Positions 3,039 through 57,926 of a DNA stretch of 64,000 bases are shown here, piece by piece. Within the stretch, counting starts at the first letter, position 1. The number at the start of each line of letters is the position of its first letter. The DNA comes from Patescibacteria group bacterium (GTDB taxonomy: Bacteria; Patescibacteriota; Patescibacteriia; 2-12-FULL-57-11): positions 462,647 through 526,646 of the forward strand of contig SCUL01000002.1 in NCBI GenBank assembly GCA_004297205.1. The letters run 5' to 3'. The translations under genes and the position numbers were made by a program. Below the pieces are notes generated by a model. The model made no database searches, was not told the origin of the DNA, and worked only from the letters and a program-made list of their open reading frames with translations.

Positions 3039-3773
3039 TCAATATTGGATGAACGCCAACGAACCGCGGATCGGCACGTCGGCTTTCTTCATGAGGAATC
3101 CCGGTTTGCCCTTCCGGATTTCAAGCACCGCATCACCGGATTGGAAGGTCAGATCCGCCTCGGACTTCGCAAGCGCATCCTTCACGTATTTCAAACCGTT
3201 GCCCCGATGTTCCGGCGCCCTCCCCGTGATGAATTCGGTGAAAGCCACGCGCAACGCTTCCTCGTCGGTTTTGAGACCGGGCCGTATCCGATGCAGCGTC
3301 GCAAAAACACCGACCCCGCGATCCGCAAGGACAACGACCCGTTTCCCCGGGTCATGGGCGAAAAAGACGCCCGGGAGATCCGGCCAATTTCCCAAGTTAT
3401 GATCGAAGGAGTTGTTGCCGATTTCCCCAACGGAAGAGGAAATGAGCGACGCAATGCCCTGAAGCGCGGGGTTGGCGTCCAACTCATGCGCCATGCGCTC
3501 GTAACGCGTTTTGAATCGGTCACTCGTCGAACAATAAAAGTCGTGTTCCGGGGGGTACGACTTTTCCGCACTGACCCATTCCTGGGCAACCCGAAAGATG
3601 CCTTTGGTCTTTCTTCCCAAGTCCGACAGCGCGTAATACCGATGGCCTCCCGGGGAAACGAAGGTTGCCTTAAAGGTTCCCTCGTTATGCCAACGCCGGA
3701 GAGTCGCCACGGAAACGCCCAGATATTTGGCCGCTTTCGTGATGGAAACAAGATTTTTTGCGACTTTCCCCAT
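3039..3773 (-). CDS. MerR-type HTH fused to a GHKL (histidine-kinase-like) ATPase domain; RsbW/SpoIIAB-like serine-kinase fold.
   Basis: Start at ATG 3773 (MGKVAKNLVSITKAAKYLGVSVATLRRWHNEGTF = MerR/excisionase-type HTH). C-terminal part has GHKL boxes: EIGNNSFDHNLG (N-box), VVLADRGVGV (G1), RGNGLKYV (G2). The longer in-frame ORF to 3884 is less likely. GC ~54%. Confidence 0.6.
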   Translation of the reverse strand: MGKVAKNLVSITKAAKYLGVSVATLRRWHNEGTFKATFVSPGGHRYYALSDLGRKTKGIFRVAQEWVSAEKSYPPEHDFYCSTSDRFKTRYERMAHELDANPALQGIASLISSSVGEIGNNSFDHNLGNWPDLPGVFFAHDPGKRVVVLADRGVGVFATLHRIRPGLKTDEEALRVAFTEFITGRAPEHRGNGLKYVKDALAKSEADLTFQSGDAVLEIRKGKPGFLMKKADVPIRGSLAFIQY

Positions 3774-3783
3774 ATCTGCAGAA

Positions 3784-3812
3784 AGTATACAAAAACTATA
3801 CAAACTTGTCAA
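3784..3812 (-). promoter_or_regulatory. Sigma70-like promoter for the HTH-GHKL gene with TTTGTATA direct repeats over the spacer and -10.
   Basis: Minus strand reads TTGACA-17nt-TATACT; about 10 nt further downstream is the ATG. TTTGTATA copies (plus-strand tatacaaa at 3786, 3797, 3816) overlap the spacer and -10 in MerR-operator-like placement. AT-rich (~38% GC). Confidence 0.45.
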
Positions 3813-3909
3813 ACCTATACAAATCTGTACATTTTGTGAAAATCGCTCATCCTCCCGACAAAAACGAGGTTGCCACGGCGCCAAAAAACGGGCAGGATAG
3901 CGGCAGTTT

Positions 3910-3984
3910 TCGCCCCTAGCTCAACGGATAGAGCTCCGGTCTTCAGAACCAGTGATGGGAGTTCGATTCTCTCAGGGCGCACCA
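3910..3984 (+). tRNA. tRNA-like gene with a Trp-type body but anticodon UCA (loop CUUCAGA); CCA encoded. Acceptor stem non-canonical as read.
   Basis: D-arm GCTC-AACGGATA-GAGC; anticodon arm CCGGT-CTTCAGA-ACCAG (one C.A mismatch); T-arm GGGAG-TTCGATT-CTCTC; 3' AGGGCGC-A-CCA. The 3' half closely resembles E. coli tRNA-Trp (GGGAGTTCGAGTCTCTC). The 5' strand tCGCCCCta pairs imperfectly with AGGGCGC, and G37 is unusual for a UCA anticodon. Confidence 0.5.
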
Positions 3985-47179: not shown

Positions 47180-47370
47180 TACGGCCACAAAACAAGAGCC
47201 TTTTCGGGCTCTTTGTGTGGTCATGAACAACTGAAGACCATTGCCCAATAGTCAGCCATGGAGGCATCGTGCTTTTCATGGTTGCAACGTCTGTCCGAAG
47301 AGTCGCAAGACTCTTCAATTCAACAGATCTCCAAATAGAGCTATCAGCTCTCGAAACCGGCTTGCCGGTT

Positions 47371-48866
<1,496 letters not shown>

Positions 48867-49140
48867 CTAGGGAGTGTTATTCTACTCTTCGGGGTATGAA
48901 TCATTTCCGTCGAACTCGCTGCGCAGTGCAGCGGGTATAGGACGTTGCAACCATAAAGGGCATGAACAAACGCCGGCCGAAAGGCCGGCGTTTTGATTGG
49001 CCAAGGCCCTTGCCAGGAATCGCCTTTTCCCCTACAGTATCCGGGCAAAACAGACATACGGCGTGGATCGTCGCTTCGCTCCGATGCACGCCCGTCGTCC
49101 GTTCGGCTTCCGAAAGCGAGCTTTCGAAGCCTCACTCCCT

Positions 49141-49217
49141 AGGGCGTGTAGCTCAGTTGGTTAGAGCGTTACACTGATAATGTAAAGGTCGATGGTTCGA
49201 CTCCATCCACGCCCACC
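49141..49217 (+). tRNA. tRNA-Ile (anticodon GAU) in the 16S-downstream spacer; CCA encoded.
   Basis: GGGCGTGTAGCTCAGTTGGTTAGAGCG, anticodon loop CTGATAA, T-arm GGTTCGACTCC, 3' end CACGCCCACCA. Followed by the hairpin atcccccg-taaata-cgggggat (49218-49245). Confidence 0.85.
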
Positions 49218-51905: not shown

Positions 51906-52610
51906 ATGATCGTCCGCGCCATCAAGACACGCGTGTTCCTTGAAGGTGAAAACGTGCACCATTTCATCGCGGAGCATGTCCGCCTGCTGCACGAGCGATC
52001 CATCCTCGTCGTCACCTCGAAGATCGTCGCGCTCGCGGAAGGGCGGACCGCCACGCCCGCATCCGAAGAAGAGAAGGCGGCTCTGATCCGCAGCGAGAGC
52101 TCGTTGGCCATTCCGACCACCTACTGTTGGCTGACCGTTCGGGACGGCATGGTCATGCCCTCCGCGGGAGTGGACGAGTCGAACGGCAACGGCAAAACGA
52201 TCCTTCTCCCGCGTGACAGCTACGTCGCCGCCTCGGCACTGCGGGAAACACTGCTCAAAACATGCAAGTTACGGCATCTTGGCGTGCTCGTGACGGACAG
52301 CCGGACGCTTCCGCTGCGCGCCGGCGTCACCGGCGTCGCCATGGGCTATGCCGGTTTTCGCGGCATTCGCGACTACCGCGGCAAGCCGGATATCTTCGGG
52401 CGTCTCCTGCGCATGTCGAGAACCAACGTGGCCGACAGCTTGGCGGCCGCCGCGGTGCTGCTGATGGGTGAAGGCGCGGAGCAACAGCCACTTGCCATCG
52501 TGGAAGATGCTCCGGTGGAGTTCAGCGACATCGTCGATCGCGGAGAACTGGCAATCGACATTCGTGATGACATGTATCGTCCATTGTTCACGAACATCGC
52601 TCACTCATGA
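51906..52610 (+). CDS. CofE-like F420-0:gamma-glutamyl ligase family protein.
   Basis: F420_ligase-family motifs SKIVALAEGR, GNGKTILLPRDS, VLVTDSRTLPLRAGVTGVAMGYAGF. Confidence 0.6.
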   Translation: MIVRAIKTRVFLEGENVHHFIAEHVRLLHERSILVVTSKIVALAEGRTATPASEEEKAALIRSESSLAIPTTYCWLTVRDGMVMPSAGVDESNGNGKTILLPRDSYVAASALRETLLKTCKLRHLGVLVTDSRTLPLRAGVTGVAMGYAGFRGIRDYRGKPDIFGRLLRMSRTNVADSLAAAAVLLMGEGAEQQPLAIVEDAPVEFSDIVDRGELAIDIRDDMYRPLFTNIAHS

Positions 52611-52640
52611 ACAATCTGTGGATAACTAGGTCGCTTTTTC

Positions 52641-52668
52641 TTGCTCTCACACTTCATCGTGCTACACT
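52641..52668 (+). promoter_or_regulatory. Putative promoter for the small basic peptide gene.
   Basis: TTGCTC-16nt-TACACT. Confidence 0.3.
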
Positions 52669-52780
52669 GAATCGTGCATGGAGGAAATTTGTGATGAGAT
52701 CGCCGATTTCCTCGCAGCACATCACATAACGCGCCACGCATCTGACGTGCGTACCGCGCACACGGAAGGAGGTGACCGAC

Positions 52781-52867
52781 ATGGCTAAACGGAAGAAGGC
52801 AGCGAAGCGGAAGCCGGCCAAGCGGCCCGCCAAGCGGAAGAAGGCGACCAAGAAGCGCCGCGCCTAA
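52781..52867 (+). CDS. Tiny Lys/Arg-rich peptide (28 aa: MAKRKKAAKRKPAKRPAKRKKATKKRRA).
   Basis: Strong SD GGAGGTGA 5 nt before the ATG; an intrinsic terminator immediately follows. Not in the ORF track (below 60 aa). Confidence 0.4.
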   Translation: MAKRKKAAKRKPAKRPAKRKKATKKRRA

Positions 52868-52871
52868 TGAC

Positions 52872-52910
52872 GCTCAAAAATCGCTCCCTTACAGGAGCGA
52901 TTTTTGTTTT
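52872..52910. terminator. Bidirectional terminator (small peptide gene on +, endoQ-like on -).
   Basis: aaatcgctcc-cttaca-ggagcgattt followed by TTGTTTTG. Confidence 0.5.
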
Positions 52911-54132
52911 GCTTCCGTTTCGTCTTCTTTGAAAATCCGCACCGTGCCGTATTGTCCGTCGAAGCCGCCGAGCACCGTGAGTTCTGCCGCGCGTACCCTG
53001 CGTATCGCTTCAGCCACGCGTTGCCCGCCTTCCGCGGCGATCTGCGCCAGCGGAACATCCAAAAGAACGGCAAATTCACTACCGACGCGGTCGGTCAGCC
53101 GCTGGTACACCTGCTGCACTTTTTTCGAAGCCGGGCCGACATCCAGAGCTTCGCCGATGACTTGTTCGAGCGGCACGATGCTGCGAAACGGCACGGCATC
53201 CGGGGGCTTTCCGCCGTCCGGCCGGTCGGCCAGCGCCGCGACGCGGGCAAGGACGCCGACCGTGACCTGCTTGCCGCAAGCCGGACAGATCCCTTTCCGC
53301 TTGGCCGTCTCTTCCGGCTTCATGCGAACGCCGCACAGACGATGACCGTCCAAATGATACTTCCCCTCTTCCGGAAAGAATTCGATCGTCTCCACCAGCG
53401 CTTTCTTGTCGCGGCCGGCGATGGCCGCGTACAGCGCGGCGTAGGTGCGCTCCGGCAGATCAAACACGTCGGCTTCACGGCCGAGGTTGCGCAGCGAGTG
53501 CGCATCGGAGTGCGAGAGCAGCAGCACGCCGTCCAGTTGCGAGAGGCGCCAGTTCATGGCCGGGTCCGAAGAGAGGCCGGTCTCGATGGCATGGATGTGT
53601 TTGGCGTCGTCGCCGAAACACTCGGTGATGCTGTCGAAACCGGACTCGGAACCGAAGATGGCGAACCACGGCGTCCAGGCGTGCGCGGGAATCAGCAGCG
53701 TGCGCGGATCGGCTTCCTGGATGAGGTGCAGGAGATCGACCGAATCCATGCCGAGGATCGGCCGCCCGTCGGCTTTCAAGTTCTTCCCCAGTTTTTCCAG
53801 AGCGGCGCGGATCTTGTGGACCGCGGCGAAATCCGGCGCAAGAAGCACGAGGTGGACGCGCCGTACTTTGCCGCCCCGCTTGTAGATGCAGGCGACTTCA
53901 CTCGACAGCACGAAGCGCGCGCCGGGCTCCGCCGGATACGCATAGGTGCCAGGCGCGACTTCCACGAGGTCGCGCTCGAGTTCCGCGATCCAGGCCGGAT
54001 GCGTGAAGTCGCCGCTGCCGAGCAGATCGATCCCCTTGCGCCGGGCCCATTGCGCCAGGTTCGGCACGGTGAGTTCCTGGCTGCAGGCGCGGGAAAACCG
54101 CGAATGGATATGGAGGTCGGTGATGGTGCGCA
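52889..54132 (-). CDS. PHP-domain endonuclease, EndoQ-like (PHP N-domain plus C-terminal Zn-finger-like region).
   Basis: Real frame is the tail of track ORF 52889..55210, with start at ATG 54132 (MRTITDLHIHSRFSRACS..GIDLLGSGDFTHPAWI, like the EndoQ N-terminus; later CPACGK). TATACT at about -13..-8 from the ATG suggests a leaderless transcript. Confidence 0.55.
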
Positions 54133-54159
54133 TGCCGGGCAGTATAAAGGAACGTCGGG

Positions 54160-54194
54160 ATAAAAAAAGTGGGCAGCGACGGTGAGTCGCTGCC
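54160..54194 (-). terminator. Intrinsic terminator between rsr and the endoQ-like gene.
   Basis: Minus strand: gggcagcgac-tcacc-gtcgctgccc followed by ACTTTTTTTA. Confidence 0.5.
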
Positions 54195-54219
54195 CGCGTT
54201 GCCGATGCAACGGTGGCGC

Positions 54220-55944
54220 CTAGGCCGCCTCGGGATCGTCCTCGGCGGAGGACGGCGCCCGCCCGGTCTCCCACCGGGCAATCCGCGCGACCGCCTGGGT
54301 TCCGTCCTCCTCGTACGAGGGGATGAACTCCAGGAGCCGCTCGGACCAGCCGGCAAGGAGCGCGACGCGCGGCTCGTCGCTTGGGAACTGCGCGGTGCCG
54401 TATCCGGCCAGGTCCACGGAGTACAGGAAGACTCCGGGGTTCACCTGGCTGCGGTACCGCCGCAGCTCCTCGGCAAGCGACGCGTCCCGGACGGACTCGT
54501 GCCACATTCCGTGCGCGGCCTGGGCCGAGTCGTAGCACTGCATGTCCGAGAAGAGGATGATCCGGTCGACCCGGGTCTTCGTCTCGCGCAGGTGCCGGAC
54601 GGCGAGGTACGCGTTCGTGGCGTGGCCCACGTCGGTGTTCGCCAGGCGCGCCATGTTGGTGATGATCGAATCCTTGGAAAGGACCGGCACCACCTTGTGA
54701 CTCTCGCCGAACACCGAGCACACCGCCTGGTCGCACATCGTGTGGGCGATGGCGCCGAGGAGGTTGGCCACGTCGCGCAGCGCGACCGTCGAGCGCTCGG
54801 AGACCGGGGACTGCATCGAGCCCGAGTTGTCCGCGGTGATGAACGTGCGCCCCGCGAGTCGGGGCAGATTCACCACCGAAGCCTCGAGCGCCGCAAGCAG
54901 CGCCTCCATGACCTCCGTCCGCCGCGGGTGCGACGCGATGCGCTCGTCGAGGGCCCGCCCCGAGATGCCGCACCACTCGCCCGCCACGGACGGGTCGAGC
55001 ACCCGGTACGCCGAGTAGAACCGGAACGGCAGCTGCCGGCTCCGCCGCACGTGCTCGGGGTTCCGGAGCATCGCGATCACGCGGTCGAGCGCCTCGTCGG
55101 CGCCGTTGCGCATGAGGTTCGCGATGTTCCGCATCCCGGCCATGAACGGCAGGCGCAGTGCGTTCCAGGTCTCGGCCTTCGCCCCGAAGTGGGAGATGAG
55201 GACCTCCCACGTGGCGTCGGCCGCGGCGGCGAGCGCGCGCGCCTCGTCGTCGAACGCCTGCTTGCGCAGCAGGGCCGACTTGGCCGCGAGCTTCGGCAGG
55301 AGCGCCGCGTCGAGCTCGCCCTTCACCAGGTACCGGTAGAGCGCGGAACGCTCCGGTGTGCCGGGCTTGGGGCGGACGATGCGCAGCACGTCGCGGAGCT
55401 TCACGGCCCGGTCGCGGTCGTACTTGGCGAAGTGGTACTCGCCGAAGTTCCCGAGCGCGTCCGCAAGCCCGCGGGTGAGGCAGTTCGGGAAGGCGTGCTC
55501 CCCGCCGCGCTCACCGTGCGAGCCGATCGGCCCGTGCGCCCTCGTCCACGCCGCGATGACCTCGGCCGGCTCGTCCGCGCGGCGGACGATCTCCGGGGTC
55601 CAGCGCCGGACGAACGGCTTGCAGGCCGGGATGGACGCGGCCATGGCGAGCACCACGATCGGGGTCGACCGGATGTGCATCACCTGGCGCGTGTAGGCCG
55701 CGAGCCGGAGCACGAACTCCGGATCCACCGCGGCCGCGGCGGCAACGTCGGCGAGGAGCTCCACATCCGACGTCTGTCCGTCGGCGTAGAACTTCGGCTC
55801 GCCGGCGAGCGACGCGCACACCCGCGTGTACAGCCGGGTCCGCGCATCCGAGGTGAAGGCGAGGCCGCCCCCGTGGTTGCGCGTGGCATCGGCGCGGGAG
55901 ACGACCTGCTCACGGATCGACGGCGAACGAAGATTCTGACGCAT
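54220..55944 (-). CDS. rsr: Ro60 ortholog Rsr (TROVE domain plus C-terminal vWA).
   Basis: TROVE region (PKFYADGQTSDVELLADVAAAAAVDPEFVLRLAAYTRQVMHIRS) and vWA MIDAS motif ITADNSGSMQ. Start ATG 55944 has SD GGAGG 5 nt upstream; the track start is GTG 55956. Confidence 0.8.
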   Translation of the reverse strand: MRQNLRSPSIREQVVSRADATRNHGGGLAFTSDARTRLYTRVCASLAGEPKFYADGQTSDVELLADVAAAAAVDPEFVLRLAAYTRQVMHIRSTPIVVLAMAASIPACKPFVRRWTPEIVRRADEPAEVIAAWTRAHGPIGSHGERGGEHAFPNCLTRGLADALGNFGEYHFAKYDRDRAVKLRDVLRIVRPKPGTPERSALYRYLVKGELDAALLPKLAAKSALLRKQAFDDEARALAAAADATWEVLISHFGAKAETWNALRLPFMAGMRNIANLMRNGADEALDRVIAMLRNPEHVRRSRQLPFRFYSAYRVLDPSVAGEWCGISGRALDERIASHPRRTEVMEALLAALEASVVNLPRLAGRTFITADNSGSMQSPVSERSTVALRDVANLLGAIAHTMCDQAVCSVFGESHKVVPVLSKDSIITNMARLANTDVGHATNAYLAVRHLRETKTRVDRIILFSDMQCYDSAQAAHGMWHESVRDASLAEELRRYRSQVNPGVFLYSVDLAGYGTAQFPSDEPRVALLAGWSERLLEFIPSYEEDGTQAVARIARWETGRAPSSAEDDPEAA

Positions 55945-56774
55945 GGGATCCTCCACCTGCCCCGCTCAGCGGGACGGAACGTTGTTATGTGCGAGTTGTG
56001 AAAGAAGAGGCCCGGGACGCGTGTCGTCGCCGGGCCATGAAGCTTGCGTATCTGGGGAGAAGAAGCGGAATCGGATGCTTGTCACCGCGCCGTACCGCGA
56101 TGGCATCCACGACGTCCTTTCGGACGCCGCGGGAGTGGAACTTTCGTTCCCCAGGGACGTGACCCCGAACGGGTCCGTCATCCCTGGTGCCGGCATCAAC
56201 CCTCACACGGAGGTCCGCCGACATGATGTTCAACCGACTGTCGAGGCCGGTCGACCATTCCCAATTGGAGATGTTCTTTAGAAGTAACCGGTTCCTACGC
56301 TGCCCCAGACGCGCAACTTGTGAAGGTTCTCGAGGAAGAAACGACGAGGGTCTTGTATGCCACTTGGAAAGAAGTATCCCTCGTCTACACCGCCGAGCGC
56401 CTTCGTCGCAGGCCGGAACCGAGCGGTTCCGGACTTGGACGAAGGGCCGGGCGGCCCCTTCCCCACGGTCCACACGCGGAGAGCGGTTTCCGCGCTCCAG
56501 AGGAGTGCAGTCCCCGCGTACCCTGGACAAGCATCGACAGGTCCGGTGCGGTCCGTTCGATCCGACGACAGTGATCTATCGCCAGCTCGATGCACCCGTT
56601 CTATCACAGGATGAAAACTTTGTCAAGTCCTTAACTACTGAGAGTCTAATTTACTACACAACAGAGCCAAATTATAACACAATAAAGTATAACGATATAT
56701 CCTACAGACGAATGAGCGGCGACAACGCAAGTGTCGCCGCGCCCTTGACGATCCACCGGGGTCGTGCTAGGTTC

Positions 56775-57058
56775 CCGCTACCGATCGGAGCGCATGCGTG
56801 CTCCATCGCCCCGTACAGGAGGCGGGGAAACATGTTCAGCGGAGGCTAGCGTCGGTTTTGCCGCAAACGTCATGGACCTCGGTTCGAGCTGGAGTACAGC
56901 AGCAGTTCGCGCAGGACACCACTTTCGAGGTTTCTGCCCGAGCAGATGGAGATCGCAAGAGCGGTCCCTTCCCGAAGGACCATCGCAAGGAGGCCACCAT
57001 GTCGAGCGGCGGCTGATACCGACCCCCGGGCGCGCAAGCGACCGGGGTCATTTTTTAC
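56775..57058 (+). ncRNA. Candidate structured ncRNA (Y-RNA-like?) in the ~1.1 kb noncoding region next to rsr, ending at an intrinsic terminator.
   Basis: AT-rich (~30% GC) stretch 56600-56700, then TTGACG-17nt-TAGGTT (56744-56772). Hairpins ggagcgc-atgc-gtgctcc and ccccg-tacaggagg-cgggg. T-loop-like GGTTCGAGC (56884) and, upstream, GGTCCGTTCGATCC (56555). Two SD-preceded pentapeptide mini-ORFs. No convincing protein ORF. Confidence 0.3.
57017..57058 (+). terminator. Plus-strand intrinsic terminator closing the noncoding region.
   Basis: gacccccgg-gcgcgcaagcga-ccggggtc (bulged C) followed by ATTTTTTAC; overlaps the stop of the minus-strand TrmB-like gene. Confidence 0.5.
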
Positions 57059-57801
57059 TTGAACGTCGGAAAGCCACCGGCACCACGCCACGCCAGATCG
57101 AACAGGGCGCGCAGCGTCTGGGCCGCGATCGCGCTGTCGATCACTACCCCGATGATCGCTCCCTTGAACGTCACGATGGCGACCTTATCGCCGTAGATGA
57201 CCAAGTCTCCGTAAAATTCGAAATCTTTGGGCGGCAGGACACGCACGTCCACGCCGGGTCGCGCCCGCTGCACGTTGCCGAGCAACAAGGCGCGGCCGGG
57301 TGTTTTGCGTTTGGAAAGGACGTCCTGAATCGCGCGCAACTCCGGATCGGAGAAAATCTCTTTGACTGCGTCAATATTGGCCATTTCGTCGACCGTGGCC
57401 GGTTTCGTGGCCGCGATATCCTCGAGAATGGTCCGCAAACCCTCCACGCCCTCAAAAAATTTCACGCCGGGACGCTCGCCTTTCTGCAGCAGCCGCAGAT
57501 CGTTCAGCACCGACGCGATCTCGCGGACCTTGCTTTGCATCTTCTTTGATTCCTCCTCCACGAAATGAAGCAGCCGATCCGGCGGTTCCGCGGAAAAGAG
57601 CTTGCGCTTGCCGCGGATGTAGGAACTCATGAGCCCTTTCTGGGAAAGCCCGGTGATCGCCGCATAGGTGGATGGCCGGGAAAAACCCGCTTTCTTGGCA
57701 ACGATCTGTACCGGAGATGGGCCGAGCTCCAAACTCGCGATGTAGACGCGCGATTCGCTGTCGTTGAAACCGAGGGATTTGAGCAGGTCTGCGTAATCCA
57801 T
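57055..57801 (-). CDS. TrmB-family transcriptional regulator.
   Basis: N-terminal TrmB HTH MDYADLLKSLGFNDSESRVYIASLELGPSPVQIVAKKAGFSRPSTYAAITGL. Start taken at ATG 57801 rather than the track start. Confidence 0.65.
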   Translation of the reverse strand: MDYADLLKSLGFNDSESRVYIASLELGPSPVQIVAKKAGFSRPSTYAAITGLSQKGLMSSYIRGKRKLFSAEPPDRLLHFVEEESKKMQSKVREIASVLNDLRLLQKGERPGVKFFEGVEGLRTILEDIAATKPATVDEMANIDAVKEIFSDPELRAIQDVLSKRKTPGRALLLGNVQRARPGVDVRVLPPKDFEFYGDLVIYGDKVAIVTFKGAIIGVVIDSAIAAQTLRALFDLAWRGAGGFPTFK

Positions 57802-57926
57802 ACCAACGCATTCTACCACACGACGATGCTTTTTTGTCGCCCAAGGGTTGACAAAAACAGGCCGATGTGATAGCCTCGCGCGTTCGTCCCCGGCCTGCTG
57901 TTCAATCCCGGGGGCGACGGAGGCAA

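What the first reader, a model, noticed from the sequence alone, without database searches (positions are those of the whole stretch)
52889..57058. rsr (Ro60 TROVE+vWA) and EndoQ-like locus with an adjacent ~1.1 kb noncoding region: candidate Y-RNA-like ncRNA
A Ro60 orthologue with a C-terminal vWA domain is followed, after its own terminator, by a PHP/Zn-finger EndoQ-like nuclease with a leaderless-looking start. Immediately 5' of rsr lies the largest non-coding stretch in this otherwise compact window (55945-57054). It contains an extremely AT-rich block, promoter-like TTGACG-17-TAGGTT, several stable hairpins, two T-loop-like motifs (GGTTCGAGC, GGTCCGTTCGATCC) and a plus-strand intrinsic terminator. 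Bacterial Rsr partners (Y RNAs such as YrlA, with tRNA-like modules) are typically encoded next to rsr. An Rsr/Y-RNA RNP beside a deaminated-base endonuclease suggests a nucleic-acid damage/quality-control island not previously described as a unit.
Basis: partly seen in the sequence, partly recalled or inferred. Interest (0 to 1): 0.75.

Follow-up and report, generated by a model that had tools for sequence, protein, structure and literature searches.

The report
Tandem Y-RNA-like genes upstream of rsr
The 1.1 kb gap next to the Ro60 (rsr) gene of this Patescibacteria genome holds two Y-RNA-type partner RNAs on the rsr strand, one with an unusual 206-nt domain in place of the usual tRNA-like part, and on the other strand a small RNA with two five-codon glycine-rich reading frames; the neighbouring EndoQ gene is real but is not linked to rsr in relatives.

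Summary

Y-RNA-like RNAs are present, but on the minus (rsr) strand at 56399-56327 (M1, 73 nt) and 56309-56051 (M2, 259 nt).

A covariance model built only from other rsr loci finds exactly these two sites in the 64 kb window (E 3e-12 and 2e-9). It finds 114 sites in 68 related loci, all on the rsr strand. In other phyla the same stem encloses Rfam YrlA matches.

The window's RNAs lack a tRNA-like domain. M2 carries a conserved multi-hairpin insert seen only in this Patescibacteria clade.

The AT-rich block separates two conserved divergent promoters. The plus-strand one drives a ~275-nt RNA with two Shine-Dalgarno-led mini-ORFs (MFSGG, MSSGG) that end just before the terminator. This arrangement is conserved in 11 of 12 relatives that carry the adjacent TrmB-like gene.

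rsr-EndoQ linkage is not conserved. TrmB-gap-rsr linkage is.

Verdict: a new variant of a known kind.

The parts
54220..55944 (-). rsr (Ro60 orthologue, TROVE + vWA/MIDAS), 574 aa; GGAGG Shine-Dalgarno sequence 6 nt before the ATG
   Evidence: Pfam TROVE E=9.5e-30, vWA_Ro60 25.5 bits; PDB 9kop E=1.6e-22; 100% identical to an NCBI 'TROVE domain-containing protein [Patescibacteria group bacterium]'
54162..54195 (-). intrinsic-terminator-like hairpin (10 bp, 8 GC) with a T-run after rsr
56327..56399 (-). Y-RNA-like RNA M1 (73 nt). P1 56399-56393/56333-56327; J1 5' CGGUGUA and 3' GUUUCUUCC; P2 GACGAGGG 56385-56378 / CCCUCGUC 56350-56343; AUACUUC 56377-56371; 20-nt apical insert
   Evidence: model R1, built without window sequences: 55.6 bits, E=3.2e-12; the minimum-energy fold recovers P1, P2 and CUU/AAG
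56051..56309 (-). Y-RNA-like RNA M2 (259 nt). P1 UCUGGGG 56309-56303 / CCCCAGA 56057-56051; J1 5' CAGCGUA and 3' GCUUCUUCU; P2 GGAACCGG 56295-56288 / CCGAUUCC 56074-56067; UUACUUC 56287-56281; 206-nt multi-hairpin insert 56280-56075
   Evidence: R1 44.9 bits, E=2.1e-9; fold z=-4.75 with P1 and P2 recovered; conserved in 9 M2-type copies from 7 loci, 25 of 42 predicted pairs compensatory
56073..56150 (-). conserved 3' half of the M2 insert: Ha GGAAC-GAAA-GUUCC (56150-56137), Hb long stem capped by C(GAAA)G (56130-56109), Hc stem with a GUACGG loop (56108-56073)
   Evidence: alignment A5 and RNAalifold pair counts; helices
56598..56626 (-). promoter-like site for the Y-RNA/rsr transcript: TTGACA (56626-56621), 17 nt, TG-n-TAGAAC (56603-56598). 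The inferred start is near 56591, which leaves a ~190-nt structured leader before M1
   Evidence: read; the same cTTGACA-N17-TGnTAgAgT lies at the equivalent place in L014, L061-L063 and L065-L068
56000..56036 (-). GC-rich hairpin GGCCCGG...CCGGGCC followed by UCUUCUUUC, between M2 and the rsr ribosome-binding site; a weak terminator or a processing signal
   Evidence: analogous hairpin plus C/U tract in L014 and L002
56630..56744 (.). AT-rich spacer between the two divergent promoters
   Evidence: GC 0.31; the same layout in relatives
   Evidence: TTGACA-17-TATATT, TATTTT or TACGCT at the equivalent position in L002, L014, L015, L017, L018
56781..57056 (+). inferred ~275-nt plus-strand RNA carrying two mini-ORFs, convergent with trmB
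   Evidence: bounded by the conserved promoter and terminator; fold z=-3.87
56817..56849 (+). AGGAGG (56817-56822), 9 nt, then ATG TTC AGC GGA GGC TAG = MFSGG* (56832-56849)
56987..57016 (+). AAGGAGG (56987-56993), 5 nt, then ATG TCG AGC GGC GGC TGA = MSSGG* (56999-57016)
57021..57056 (+). intrinsic terminator: stem GACCCC...GGGGTC (57021-57049) and T6 (57051-57056). It starts 4 nt after the mini-ORF stop, and its T-run overlaps the trmB stop codon
   Evidence: the same stop-to-hairpin spacing of 2-8 nt in 11 relatives
57055..57819 (-). TrmB-like HTH regulator gene, the conserved upstream neighbour of the cassette
   Evidence: Pfam TrmB E=1.3e-10; TrmB-gap-rsr synteny in 12 related loci
52889..54133 (-). 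EndoQ homologue (414 aa), an adjacent gene that is not part of the conserved unit; leaderless-looking start (TATACT ends 7 nt before the ATG, no Shine-Dalgarno sequence)
   Evidence: PDB 5zb8/7k30 E=5e-57, full length; TIGR00375 E=1e-49; absent next to rsr in relatives

Best explanation
The gap between trmB and rsr is a compact RNA locus organised around two divergent sigma-70-type promoters in the AT-rich block.

Minus-strand transcript (inferred). The minus-strand promoter gives a ~650-nt transcript that continues into rsr. It contains two tandem Y-RNA-type RNAs, M1 (73 nt) and M2 (259 nt). Each is closed by the same platform:
- a 7-bp stem, P1;
- a conserved asymmetric internal loop (5' CRGYGUA, 3' GNNUUCUUC);
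- an 8-bp stem, P2;
- the conserved 5' strand (A/U)UACUUC.

Shown: this platform is conserved with abundant compensatory changes. It occurs only on the rsr strand next to rsr genes in many phyla and in phages. In other lineages it encloses the tRNA-like domain that Rfam recognises as YrlA.

Inferred: Rsr binds this platform, as Ro60 binds the bulged terminal stem of known Y RNAs. The two RNAs are cut out of the precursor, as in M. smegmatis and D. radiodurans. The apical parts tether Rsr to partners. M1 is the 'long hairpin, small loop' type (YrlB/Yrn2-like). M2 replaces the tRNA-like module with a clade-specific 206-nt multi-hairpin domain that carries two GNRA-capped hairpins.

Plus-strand RNA. 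The plus-strand promoter gives a separate ~275-nt RNA. Its two 5-codon Gly/Ser ORFs are probably translated. The second ends 4 nt before the terminator, which abuts trmB. Its role is unknown. My best guess is a translation-coupled switch on termination, and so on antisense transcription into trmB.
For: Motif and helices:
- The motif GCRGYGUAG-N7-(A/U)UACUUC lies in pairs upstream of rsr, on its strand, in most of the close loci with upstream sequence (L011 shows none and L017 a single copy).
- The partner strands, followed by GNNUUCUUC, and an outer helix were found with different sequences in each copy.
- On 26 non-window copies, 91.3% of cells pair, against 58% in shuffles. 14 of 15 pairs change on both sides. 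Slid controls give 44-53%.

Model R1, built from those 26 copies:
- It finds exactly two sites in the 64 kb window on both strands, E=3.2e-12 and 2.1e-9.
- It finds 102 + 12 sites in 68 rsr loci, all on the rsr strand and none opposite.
- R1 hits enclose the Rfam YrlA matches: L003 1366-1494 against 1381-1481; L023 3519-3647 against 3537-3639; also L021, L022, L007, L008.
- Phage TROVE loci show the same module.

Other support:
- The M2 insert is conserved, with compensatory pairs.
- Fold z-scores are -6.15 and -4.75.
- The promoter is conserved in relatives.
[quoted passage not shown] In M. smegmatis both lie upstream of rsr and come from one precursor (PMC4201824).
Against: - No expression, processing or binding data exist for this organism.
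- Rfam YrlA and tRNA models do not match the window at all.
- The YrlA matches in the relatives that anchor the homology are all below Rfam's gathering score (27-48 bits against 69).
- The published putative Rsr-binding motif GNCGAAN0-1G (PMC4201824) is not present at the expected place in M1 or M2. Relatives read UACUUCGAAC, but the window reads UACUUCUUU and UACUUCUAA.
- The copies used for the covariation count were picked by a finder that required pairing, so the 'percent paired' figure is inflated. The pair-type diversity and the independent window hits are not affected.
- The hairpin plus C/U tract at 56036-56000 could terminate transcription before rsr.
Confidence: 0.8

Rival explanations
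1. M1 and M2 are not released as trans-acting Y RNAs. They are cis-acting Rsr-binding sites in the long 5' leader of the rsr mRNA and give autoregulation. This does not exclude the main explanation.
For: In the window and its close relatives the modules always sit between a conserved promoter and rsr, with no strong terminator in between. The M1-M2 linker CCUUCAC can pair with the rsr Shine-Dalgarno region GUGGAGG in the minimum-energy fold, and likewise in L014.
Against: In other lineages the same module lies downstream of rsr (L003, L004, L040, crAss-like phage L070), where it cannot be a 5' leader. Characterised Y RNAs upstream of rsr are processed from precursors (PMC4201824). Pairing between CCUC and a Shine-Dalgarno sequence is expected by chance.
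Confidence: 0.15
2. One reading: the Y RNA is a plus-strand, tRNA-like RNA that runs from TTGACG-17-TAGGTT to the plus-strand terminator and uses the T-loop-like motifs.
For: The promoter and terminator are conserved in relatives, and the RNA folds better than shuffles (z=-3.87).
Against: No tRNA, YrlA or R1 match on the plus strand. All 114 R1 hits and all YrlA hits elsewhere are co-oriented with rsr. GGTTCGAGC is a 4-bp/3-nt hairpin, and GGTCCGTTCGATCC lies antisense to the minus-strand leader. Apart from the Shine-Dalgarno/mini-ORF/terminator modules, the sequence is barely conserved.
Confidence: 0.04
3. rsr, the Y RNAs and EndoQ form one functional nucleic-acid damage island.
For: They are adjacent and co-oriented in this window. 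Both proteins act on damaged or aberrant nucleic acids (established knowledge of the families).
Against: A terminator separates the genes, and EndoQ seems to have its own leaderless start. tblastn with the EndoQ protein finds no relative in any of the 60 rsr loci then held. No PHP or EndoQ gene is called in 8 further contexts.
Confidence: 0.05
4. The gap holds a missed or decayed protein-coding gene.
For: ORFs of up to 220 aa are present on both strands.
Against: No codon-position GC signal. No Pfam hit. No protein-level conservation in 71 fetched loci (68 rsr loci and 3 phage TROVE loci), even though nucleotide and structure conservation is clear. Long ORFs are expected by chance at 65% GC.
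Confidence: 0.02

Closest known systems
YrlA-type bacterial Y RNAs (Rfam RF02553; S. Typhimurium and M. smegmatis YrlA)
   Same: Encoded within a few hundred nt of rsr on the same strand, often in tandem. The 5' and 3' ends form a terminal stem, followed on the 5' strand by AU(G/A)CUU. In other phyla, the stem module found here physically encloses the YrlA matches.
   Different: No T-arm, D-arm or acceptor-like domain, and no Rfam match at any threshold. M2 has a 206-nt multi-hairpin domain in its place. The extra outer helix P1 and the conserved internal loop CRGYGUA/GNNUUCUUC lie outside the Rfam model. The GNCGAA motif is absent from the window copies.
YrlB (Salmonella, M. smegmatis) and Yrn2 (D. 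radiodurans): second, hairpin-type Y RNAs
   Same: [quoted passage not shown] This matches the description in PMC4201824.
Thermus phage phiLo Yrl1/Yrl2 with phiRo60 (PMC12135203)
   Same: Two Y-like RNAs directly upstream of a TROVE gene with a stem-bulge-stem platform. phiRo60 is the closest solved structure to the window's Rsr.
   Different: Those RNAs were picked by a CGAA motif in the bulge. The window copies lack CGAA, although most clade relatives have CUUCGAA.
Leader-peptide attenuators and minigenes (trp/pyrBI-type leaders; lambda bar minigenes)
   Same: For the plus-strand RNA only: a Shine-Dalgarno-led ORF of a few codons that ends 2-8 nt before an intrinsic terminator.
   Different: No downstream sense gene, since read-through would run antisense into trmB. 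No alternative antiterminator hairpin was identified. The link rests on my own knowledge of those systems and was not tested.

Membership tests
Bacterial Y RNA (Rsr partner RNA, broad sense) | Encoded close to rsr on the same strand | tested here: met
   M1 and M2 lie 107-455 nt upstream of the rsr ATG on the minus strand. All 114 module hits in 68 loci are on the rsr strand.
Bacterial Y RNA (Rsr partner RNA, broad sense) | 5' and 3' ends pair into a long stem interrupted by a conserved bulge or internal loop (the Ro60-binding platform) | tested here: met
   P1-J1-P2 with 14 of 15 pairs covarying; recovered by single-sequence folding.
Bacterial Y RNA (Rsr partner RNA, broad sense) | Published putative Rsr-binding sequence GNCGAAN0-1G / CGAA in the platform (PMC4201824; PMC12135203) | tested here: not met
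   The window has AUACUUCUUU (M1) and UUACUUCUAA (M2). Most relatives have UACUUCGAAC. The motif is itself only a proposed binding site.
Bacterial Y RNA (Rsr partner RNA, broad sense) | Bound and stabilised by Rsr | not testable with these tools
   Needs RIP, EMSA or an rsr knockout.
YrlA (Rfam RF02553) | tRNA-like module (T-arm, acceptor-like stem, D-arm) and a score at or above the gathering threshold of 69 bits | tested here: not met
   No YrlA or tRNA hit in 52500-57300 at E<=10. ARAGORN finds nothing there. Clade relatives are also negative.
Ro60/Rsr protein | TROVE (HEAT-repeat ring) domain followed by a vWA domain with MIDAS | tested here: met
   TROVE E=9.5e-30. vWA_Ro60 E=1.4e-5, slightly below its cut-off. 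DNSGS motif in the translation. 9kop aligned over residues 20-546. NCBIfam Rsr equivalog scores only 37.6 bits against a 900-bit cut-off, so it is a divergent member.
Endonuclease Q | Full-length homology to a characterised EndoQ, including the N-terminal PHP HxH motif and the Cys-rich zinc finger | tested here: met
   5zb8/7k30 E=5e-57 over residues 9-407; DLHIHS and C..C/CPxCG are aligned. Catalytic activity was not tested.
Leader-peptide transcription attenuator | Short translated ORF whose ribosome occupancy chooses between terminator and antiterminator upstream of a regulated gene | tested here: inconclusive
   A Shine-Dalgarno-led ORF and a terminator 2-8 nt after the stop are conserved. 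No antiterminator and no downstream sense gene were found.

The most novel reading that the evidence does not exclude
A clade of Patescibacteria (Uhrbacteria-like) has a self-contained RNA-surveillance cassette. Its parts are a TrmB-like regulator, a divergent promoter pair, a Y-RNA precursor whose large member has swapped the tRNA-mimic for a new ~200-nt effector domain, and an antisense-facing small RNA. In that small RNA, the translation of 3-5 Gly/Ser codons ends against the terminator. This would sense translational or glycyl-tRNA status and set read-through into trmB, and so set expression of Rsr and its Y RNAs. If true, it would be a new input logic for Ro60 systems and a new Y RNA effector module.
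Probability: 0.15. Interest if true: 0.75.

Novelty: new variant of a known kind. Interest (0 to 1): 0.55.

Why it matters
Y RNAs next to rsr are textbook knowledge, so their presence here is expected. Three things are new.

1. A structural signature, P1 - CRGYGUA/GNNUUCUUC loop - P2 - UACUUC, detects Rsr-linked RNAs that Rfam's YrlA model misses. It works across phyla and phages with perfect strand specificity in this sample. It gives a better handle for annotating Y RNAs and a concrete candidate for the Rsr-binding surface.

2. A Patescibacteria lineage has Y RNAs with no tRNA-like module. One of them carries a conserved 206-nt domain. This bears on the open question of what the tRNA-like module is for and what Rsr is tethered to in organisms with minimal RNA-decay machinery.

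3. A conserved small RNA with five-codon Gly-rich ORFs is wedged between the regulator gene and the Y-RNA promoter. It is an unexplained and experimentally tractable element.

Tried and rejected
- Rfam at gathering and at E<=10 on the region found no Y RNA, YrlA or tRNA. ARAGORN found none either.
- The T-loop-like motifs were rejected as tRNA-like elements for the same reason and on inspection.
- blastn of the gap against relatives gave only 23-99-nt patches. This pointed to the motif but was useless for whole-region alignment.
- The first idea was that GGCAGCG-UA-G... is a permuted acceptor/D-arm. I rejected it because the bases after GUAG covary with a downstream strand, not with CUUC.
- The RNAfold alternative for M1 (GGGGAAGGG/UUCUUCCUC plus GCCGCC/GGCGGU) was set aside in favour of the P1/P2 fold, which relatives support.
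- tblastn of the EndoQ protein against the 60 loci then held gave no hit. The same search of every gap ORF of 71 aa or more, against all 71 loci, gave only two marginal hits (E 0.002 and 0.004), which lie antisense to the conserved RNA.
- PADLOC gave no hit for Rsr, EndoQ or TrmB.
- A blastn search of E. coli genomes with the Rfam YrlA consensus, meant to reach a validated Y RNA locus, found no match.
- The Annual Review on bacterial Ro60 (PMC10870794) is not held.
- MAFFT alignment of the plus-strand RNA showed little conservation outside the Shine-Dalgarno/ORF/terminator modules. No structure model was attempted.

Full report
**Source and gene map.** The window's Rsr is 100% identical to an NCBI protein from a 'Patescibacteria group bacterium' contig of 855,898 bp. 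Its nearest relatives (59-72% identity) are Uhrbacteria or unclassified Patescibacteria. All of the following genes are on the minus strand.
- A TrmB-like regulator at 57819-57055 (Pfam TrmB E=1.3e-10).
- A 1110-nt gap.
- rsr at 55944-54220 (TROVE E=9.5e-30; vWA_Ro60 just under its cut-off; closest solved structure the Thermus phage Ro60 9kop).
- A hairpin with a T-run at 54195-54162.
- A gene at 54133-52889 that aligns over its full length with P. furiosus EndoQ (E=5e-57). Its ATG has no Shine-Dalgarno sequence, and TATACT ends 7 nt upstream.

**The gap is non-coding.** rsr shows GC3 of about 0.96. The gap shows no codon-position signal. Its ORFs of up to 220 aa have no Pfam hit and no protein-level conservation in 71 fetched loci (68 rsr loci and 3 phage TROVE loci).

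Rfam finds nothing in 52500-57300, even at E<=10 with permissive filters, and ARAGORN finds no tRNA-like gene. The two 'T-loop-like' strings are therefore not evidence of a tRNA-like Y RNA. In more distant rsr loci, Rfam YrlA gives significant but sub-threshold matches (27-48 bits). All of them are on the rsr strand.

**Synteny.** tblastn and gene contexts show TrmB, then a 1.0-2.8 kb gene-free gap, then rsr, all co-oriented. This holds in L002, L014, L015, L017, L018, L051, L061, L062, L063, L065, L067 and L068. No relative has EndoQ next to rsr. The 'Rsr + EndoQ island' reading is not supported.

**The conserved RNA module.**
- Pairwise blastn of the gaps gave short collinear patches. These led to a motif, GCRGYGUAG-N7-(A/U)UACUUC, present in pairs on the rsr strand in most close loci.
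- The seven or eight bases after GUA pair with a downstream segment. That segment is followed by GNNUUCUUC, and the flanks form an outer helix. Both helices differ in sequence from copy to copy.
- On 26 short-insert copies from other loci (alignment A3), 91.3% of cells pair against 58% in shuffles. 14 of 15 pairs change on both sides. Slid controls give 44-53%. One caveat applies: the copies were collected with a finder that required pairing. This inflates 'percent paired' but not the diversity of pair types.
- A covariance model built from A3, with no window sequence (R1), gives an independent test. In the whole window, on both strands, it finds exactly two sites: 56399-56327(-) at 55.6 bits, E=3.2e-12 (M1), and 56309-56051(-) at 44.9 bits, E=2.1e-9 (M2). 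The next candidate has E=0.51.
- Across 68 rsr loci R1 finds 114 sites at E<=0.01. All are on the rsr strand, in arrays of 2-6, upstream or downstream of rsr.
- R1 hits with ~80-nt inserts coincide with the Rfam YrlA matches (L003, L007, L008, L021, L022, L023). The module is therefore the terminal stem that carries the tRNA-like domain in YrlA-type RNAs.
- Two of three sampled phage TROVE loci (crAss-like L070, Rhizobium phage L071) have R1 hits, and Streptomyces phage L069 has only a YrlA match.

**M1 and M2 in the window.**
- M1 has a 20-nt apical insert. It fits the 'long hairpin with a small loop' second Y RNA described for Salmonella, M. smegmatis and D. radiodurans (PMC4201824).
- M2 has a 206-nt insert. 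M2-type copies in L014, L013, L017, L018, L002 and L015 have inserts of 155-267 nt.
- These inserts share a GNRA-capped 5-bp hairpin, a long C(GAAA)G-capped hairpin, and a 4-bp stem with an (A/G)UACGG loop. In RNAalifold, 25 of 42 pairs are kept through changes on both sides.
- In this sample, R1 hits of 190 nt or more occur only in this clade.
- M2 alone folds with z=-4.75, and the minimum-energy structure recovers P1 and P2.
- There is no tRNA-like domain in the window or in any clade relative.
- The proposed Rsr-binding motif GNCGAAN0-1G / CGAA (PMC4201824; PMC12135203) is absent from the window's two copies. Most relatives read UACUUCGAAC.

**Transcription (inferred).**
- Just downstream of the AT-rich block, on the minus strand, lies TTGACA-17-TGnTAGAAC (56626-56598).
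- The same cTTGACA-N17-TGnTAgAgT is found at the equivalent place in relatives.
- The likely product is a ~650-nt precursor (leader, M1, M2) that continues into rsr. The only candidate stop is a GC hairpin followed by UCUUCUUUC at 56036-56000.
- Processing from a precursor has precedent.
- A purely cis-acting leader role cannot be excluded for this locus. It is unlikely for the family, because the module also occurs downstream of rsr.

**The plus strand.**
- The plus-strand terminator is also conserved.
- Between them the window has two Shine-Dalgarno-led mini-ORFs: AGGAGG-9-ATG...TAG (MFSGG, 56832-56849) and AAGGAGG-5-ATG...TGA (MSSGG, 56999-57016). The second stops 4 nt before the terminator stem.
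- These are the only two GGAGG-led ORFs of 2-6 codons in the 64 kb window. Shuffles give 1.5 of any kind and 0.07 Gly/Ser-rich.
- Eleven of the twelve relatives with TrmB have one or two equivalents: MGSGS, MGSGR, MGSGG, MGGG, MGGSGR, MFGG, MYGG, MCGG, MLGGGK, MFGSGK. The terminal ORF in each is followed within 2-8 nt by a terminator.
- In 463 kb of loci, all 14 Gly-rich examples are on the strand opposite rsr, between trmB and the Y array.
- Gly codons vary at the third position. Ser switches between AGY and UCN. Both point to selection on translation rather than on RNA sequence.
- The rest of the RNA is poorly conserved. Function is unknown. A translation-coupled effect on termination, and so on antisense transcription into trmB, is my speculation.

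**Verdict.** The strand, position and features are different from those proposed, and the RNAs lack tRNA mimicry. The EndoQ association is incidental. The Y RNAs are a new variant of a known kind. The mini-ORF RNA and the TrmB linkage are the least expected parts.

Noticed in passing
window 56781-57056 (+); also L002, L014, L015, L017, L018, L051, L061-L063, L067, L068 on the strand opposite rsr: A conserved small RNA with one or two Shine-Dalgarno-led ORFs of 3-5 Gly/Ser-rich codons. The window has MFSGG and MSSGG. The last ORF ends 2-8 nt before an intrinsic terminator that abuts the trmB stop codon. The codon changes look like selection on translation. Function unknown.
   Followed up: partly
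window 57055-57819 (-) and 12 related loci: A TrmB-like HTH regulator is the conserved upstream neighbour of the Y-RNA/rsr unit. In several relatives a PRPP synthetase gene precedes it. It is the obvious candidate regulator of the divergent promoters.
   Followed up: partly
L002 1894-3057 / 3131-3845 and L015: The whole ~1.24 kb Y-RNA unit (M1 + M2) is tandemly duplicated, which gives four modules and a 2.7-2.8 kb gene-free gap. L019 and L032 carry four modules of different sizes.
   Followed up: partly
window 54220-55944: rsr is compositionally distinct from its neighbours: GC 0.66-0.79 and GC3 about 0.96, against about 0.8 GC3 in EndoQ and trmB. This is compatible with horizontal acquisition.
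   Followed up: no
window 56326-56310 and 55957-55951 (-): The M1-M2 linker CCUUCAC can pair with the rsr Shine-Dalgarno region GUGGAGG in the minimum-energy fold. L014 shows ACCUCAC/GUGAGGU. This might couple precursor processing to rsr translation, or it may be chance.
   Followed up: no
window 47370-49215: The 16S rRNA gene is followed by tRNA-Ile(GAT) and then by ORFs. Rfam finds no 23S anywhere in the 64 kb window, so the rRNA genes appear to be unlinked.
   Followed up: no
window 3910-3984: ARAGORN calls a tRNA-SeC (anticodon TCA) here. Rfam's tRNA model gives only 42 bits, with several non-canonical acceptor pairs. This is unexpected in a reduced Patescibacteria genome.
   Followed up: no
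L001 3668-3741: A contig binned as 'uncultured Gammaproteobacteria' carries a tRNA-Ile identical to the window's and an Rsr 54% identical to the window's. It is probably a mis-binned Patescibacteria contig.
   Followed up: no
L012 4472-4810: In one relative a tmRNA gene lies about 950 nt downstream of rsr on the same strand.
   Followed up: no
window 56866-56897 (+); L051, L061-L063: A CUCGAG-centred palindrome or hairpin recurs 20-40 nt after the first mini-ORF.
   Followed up: no
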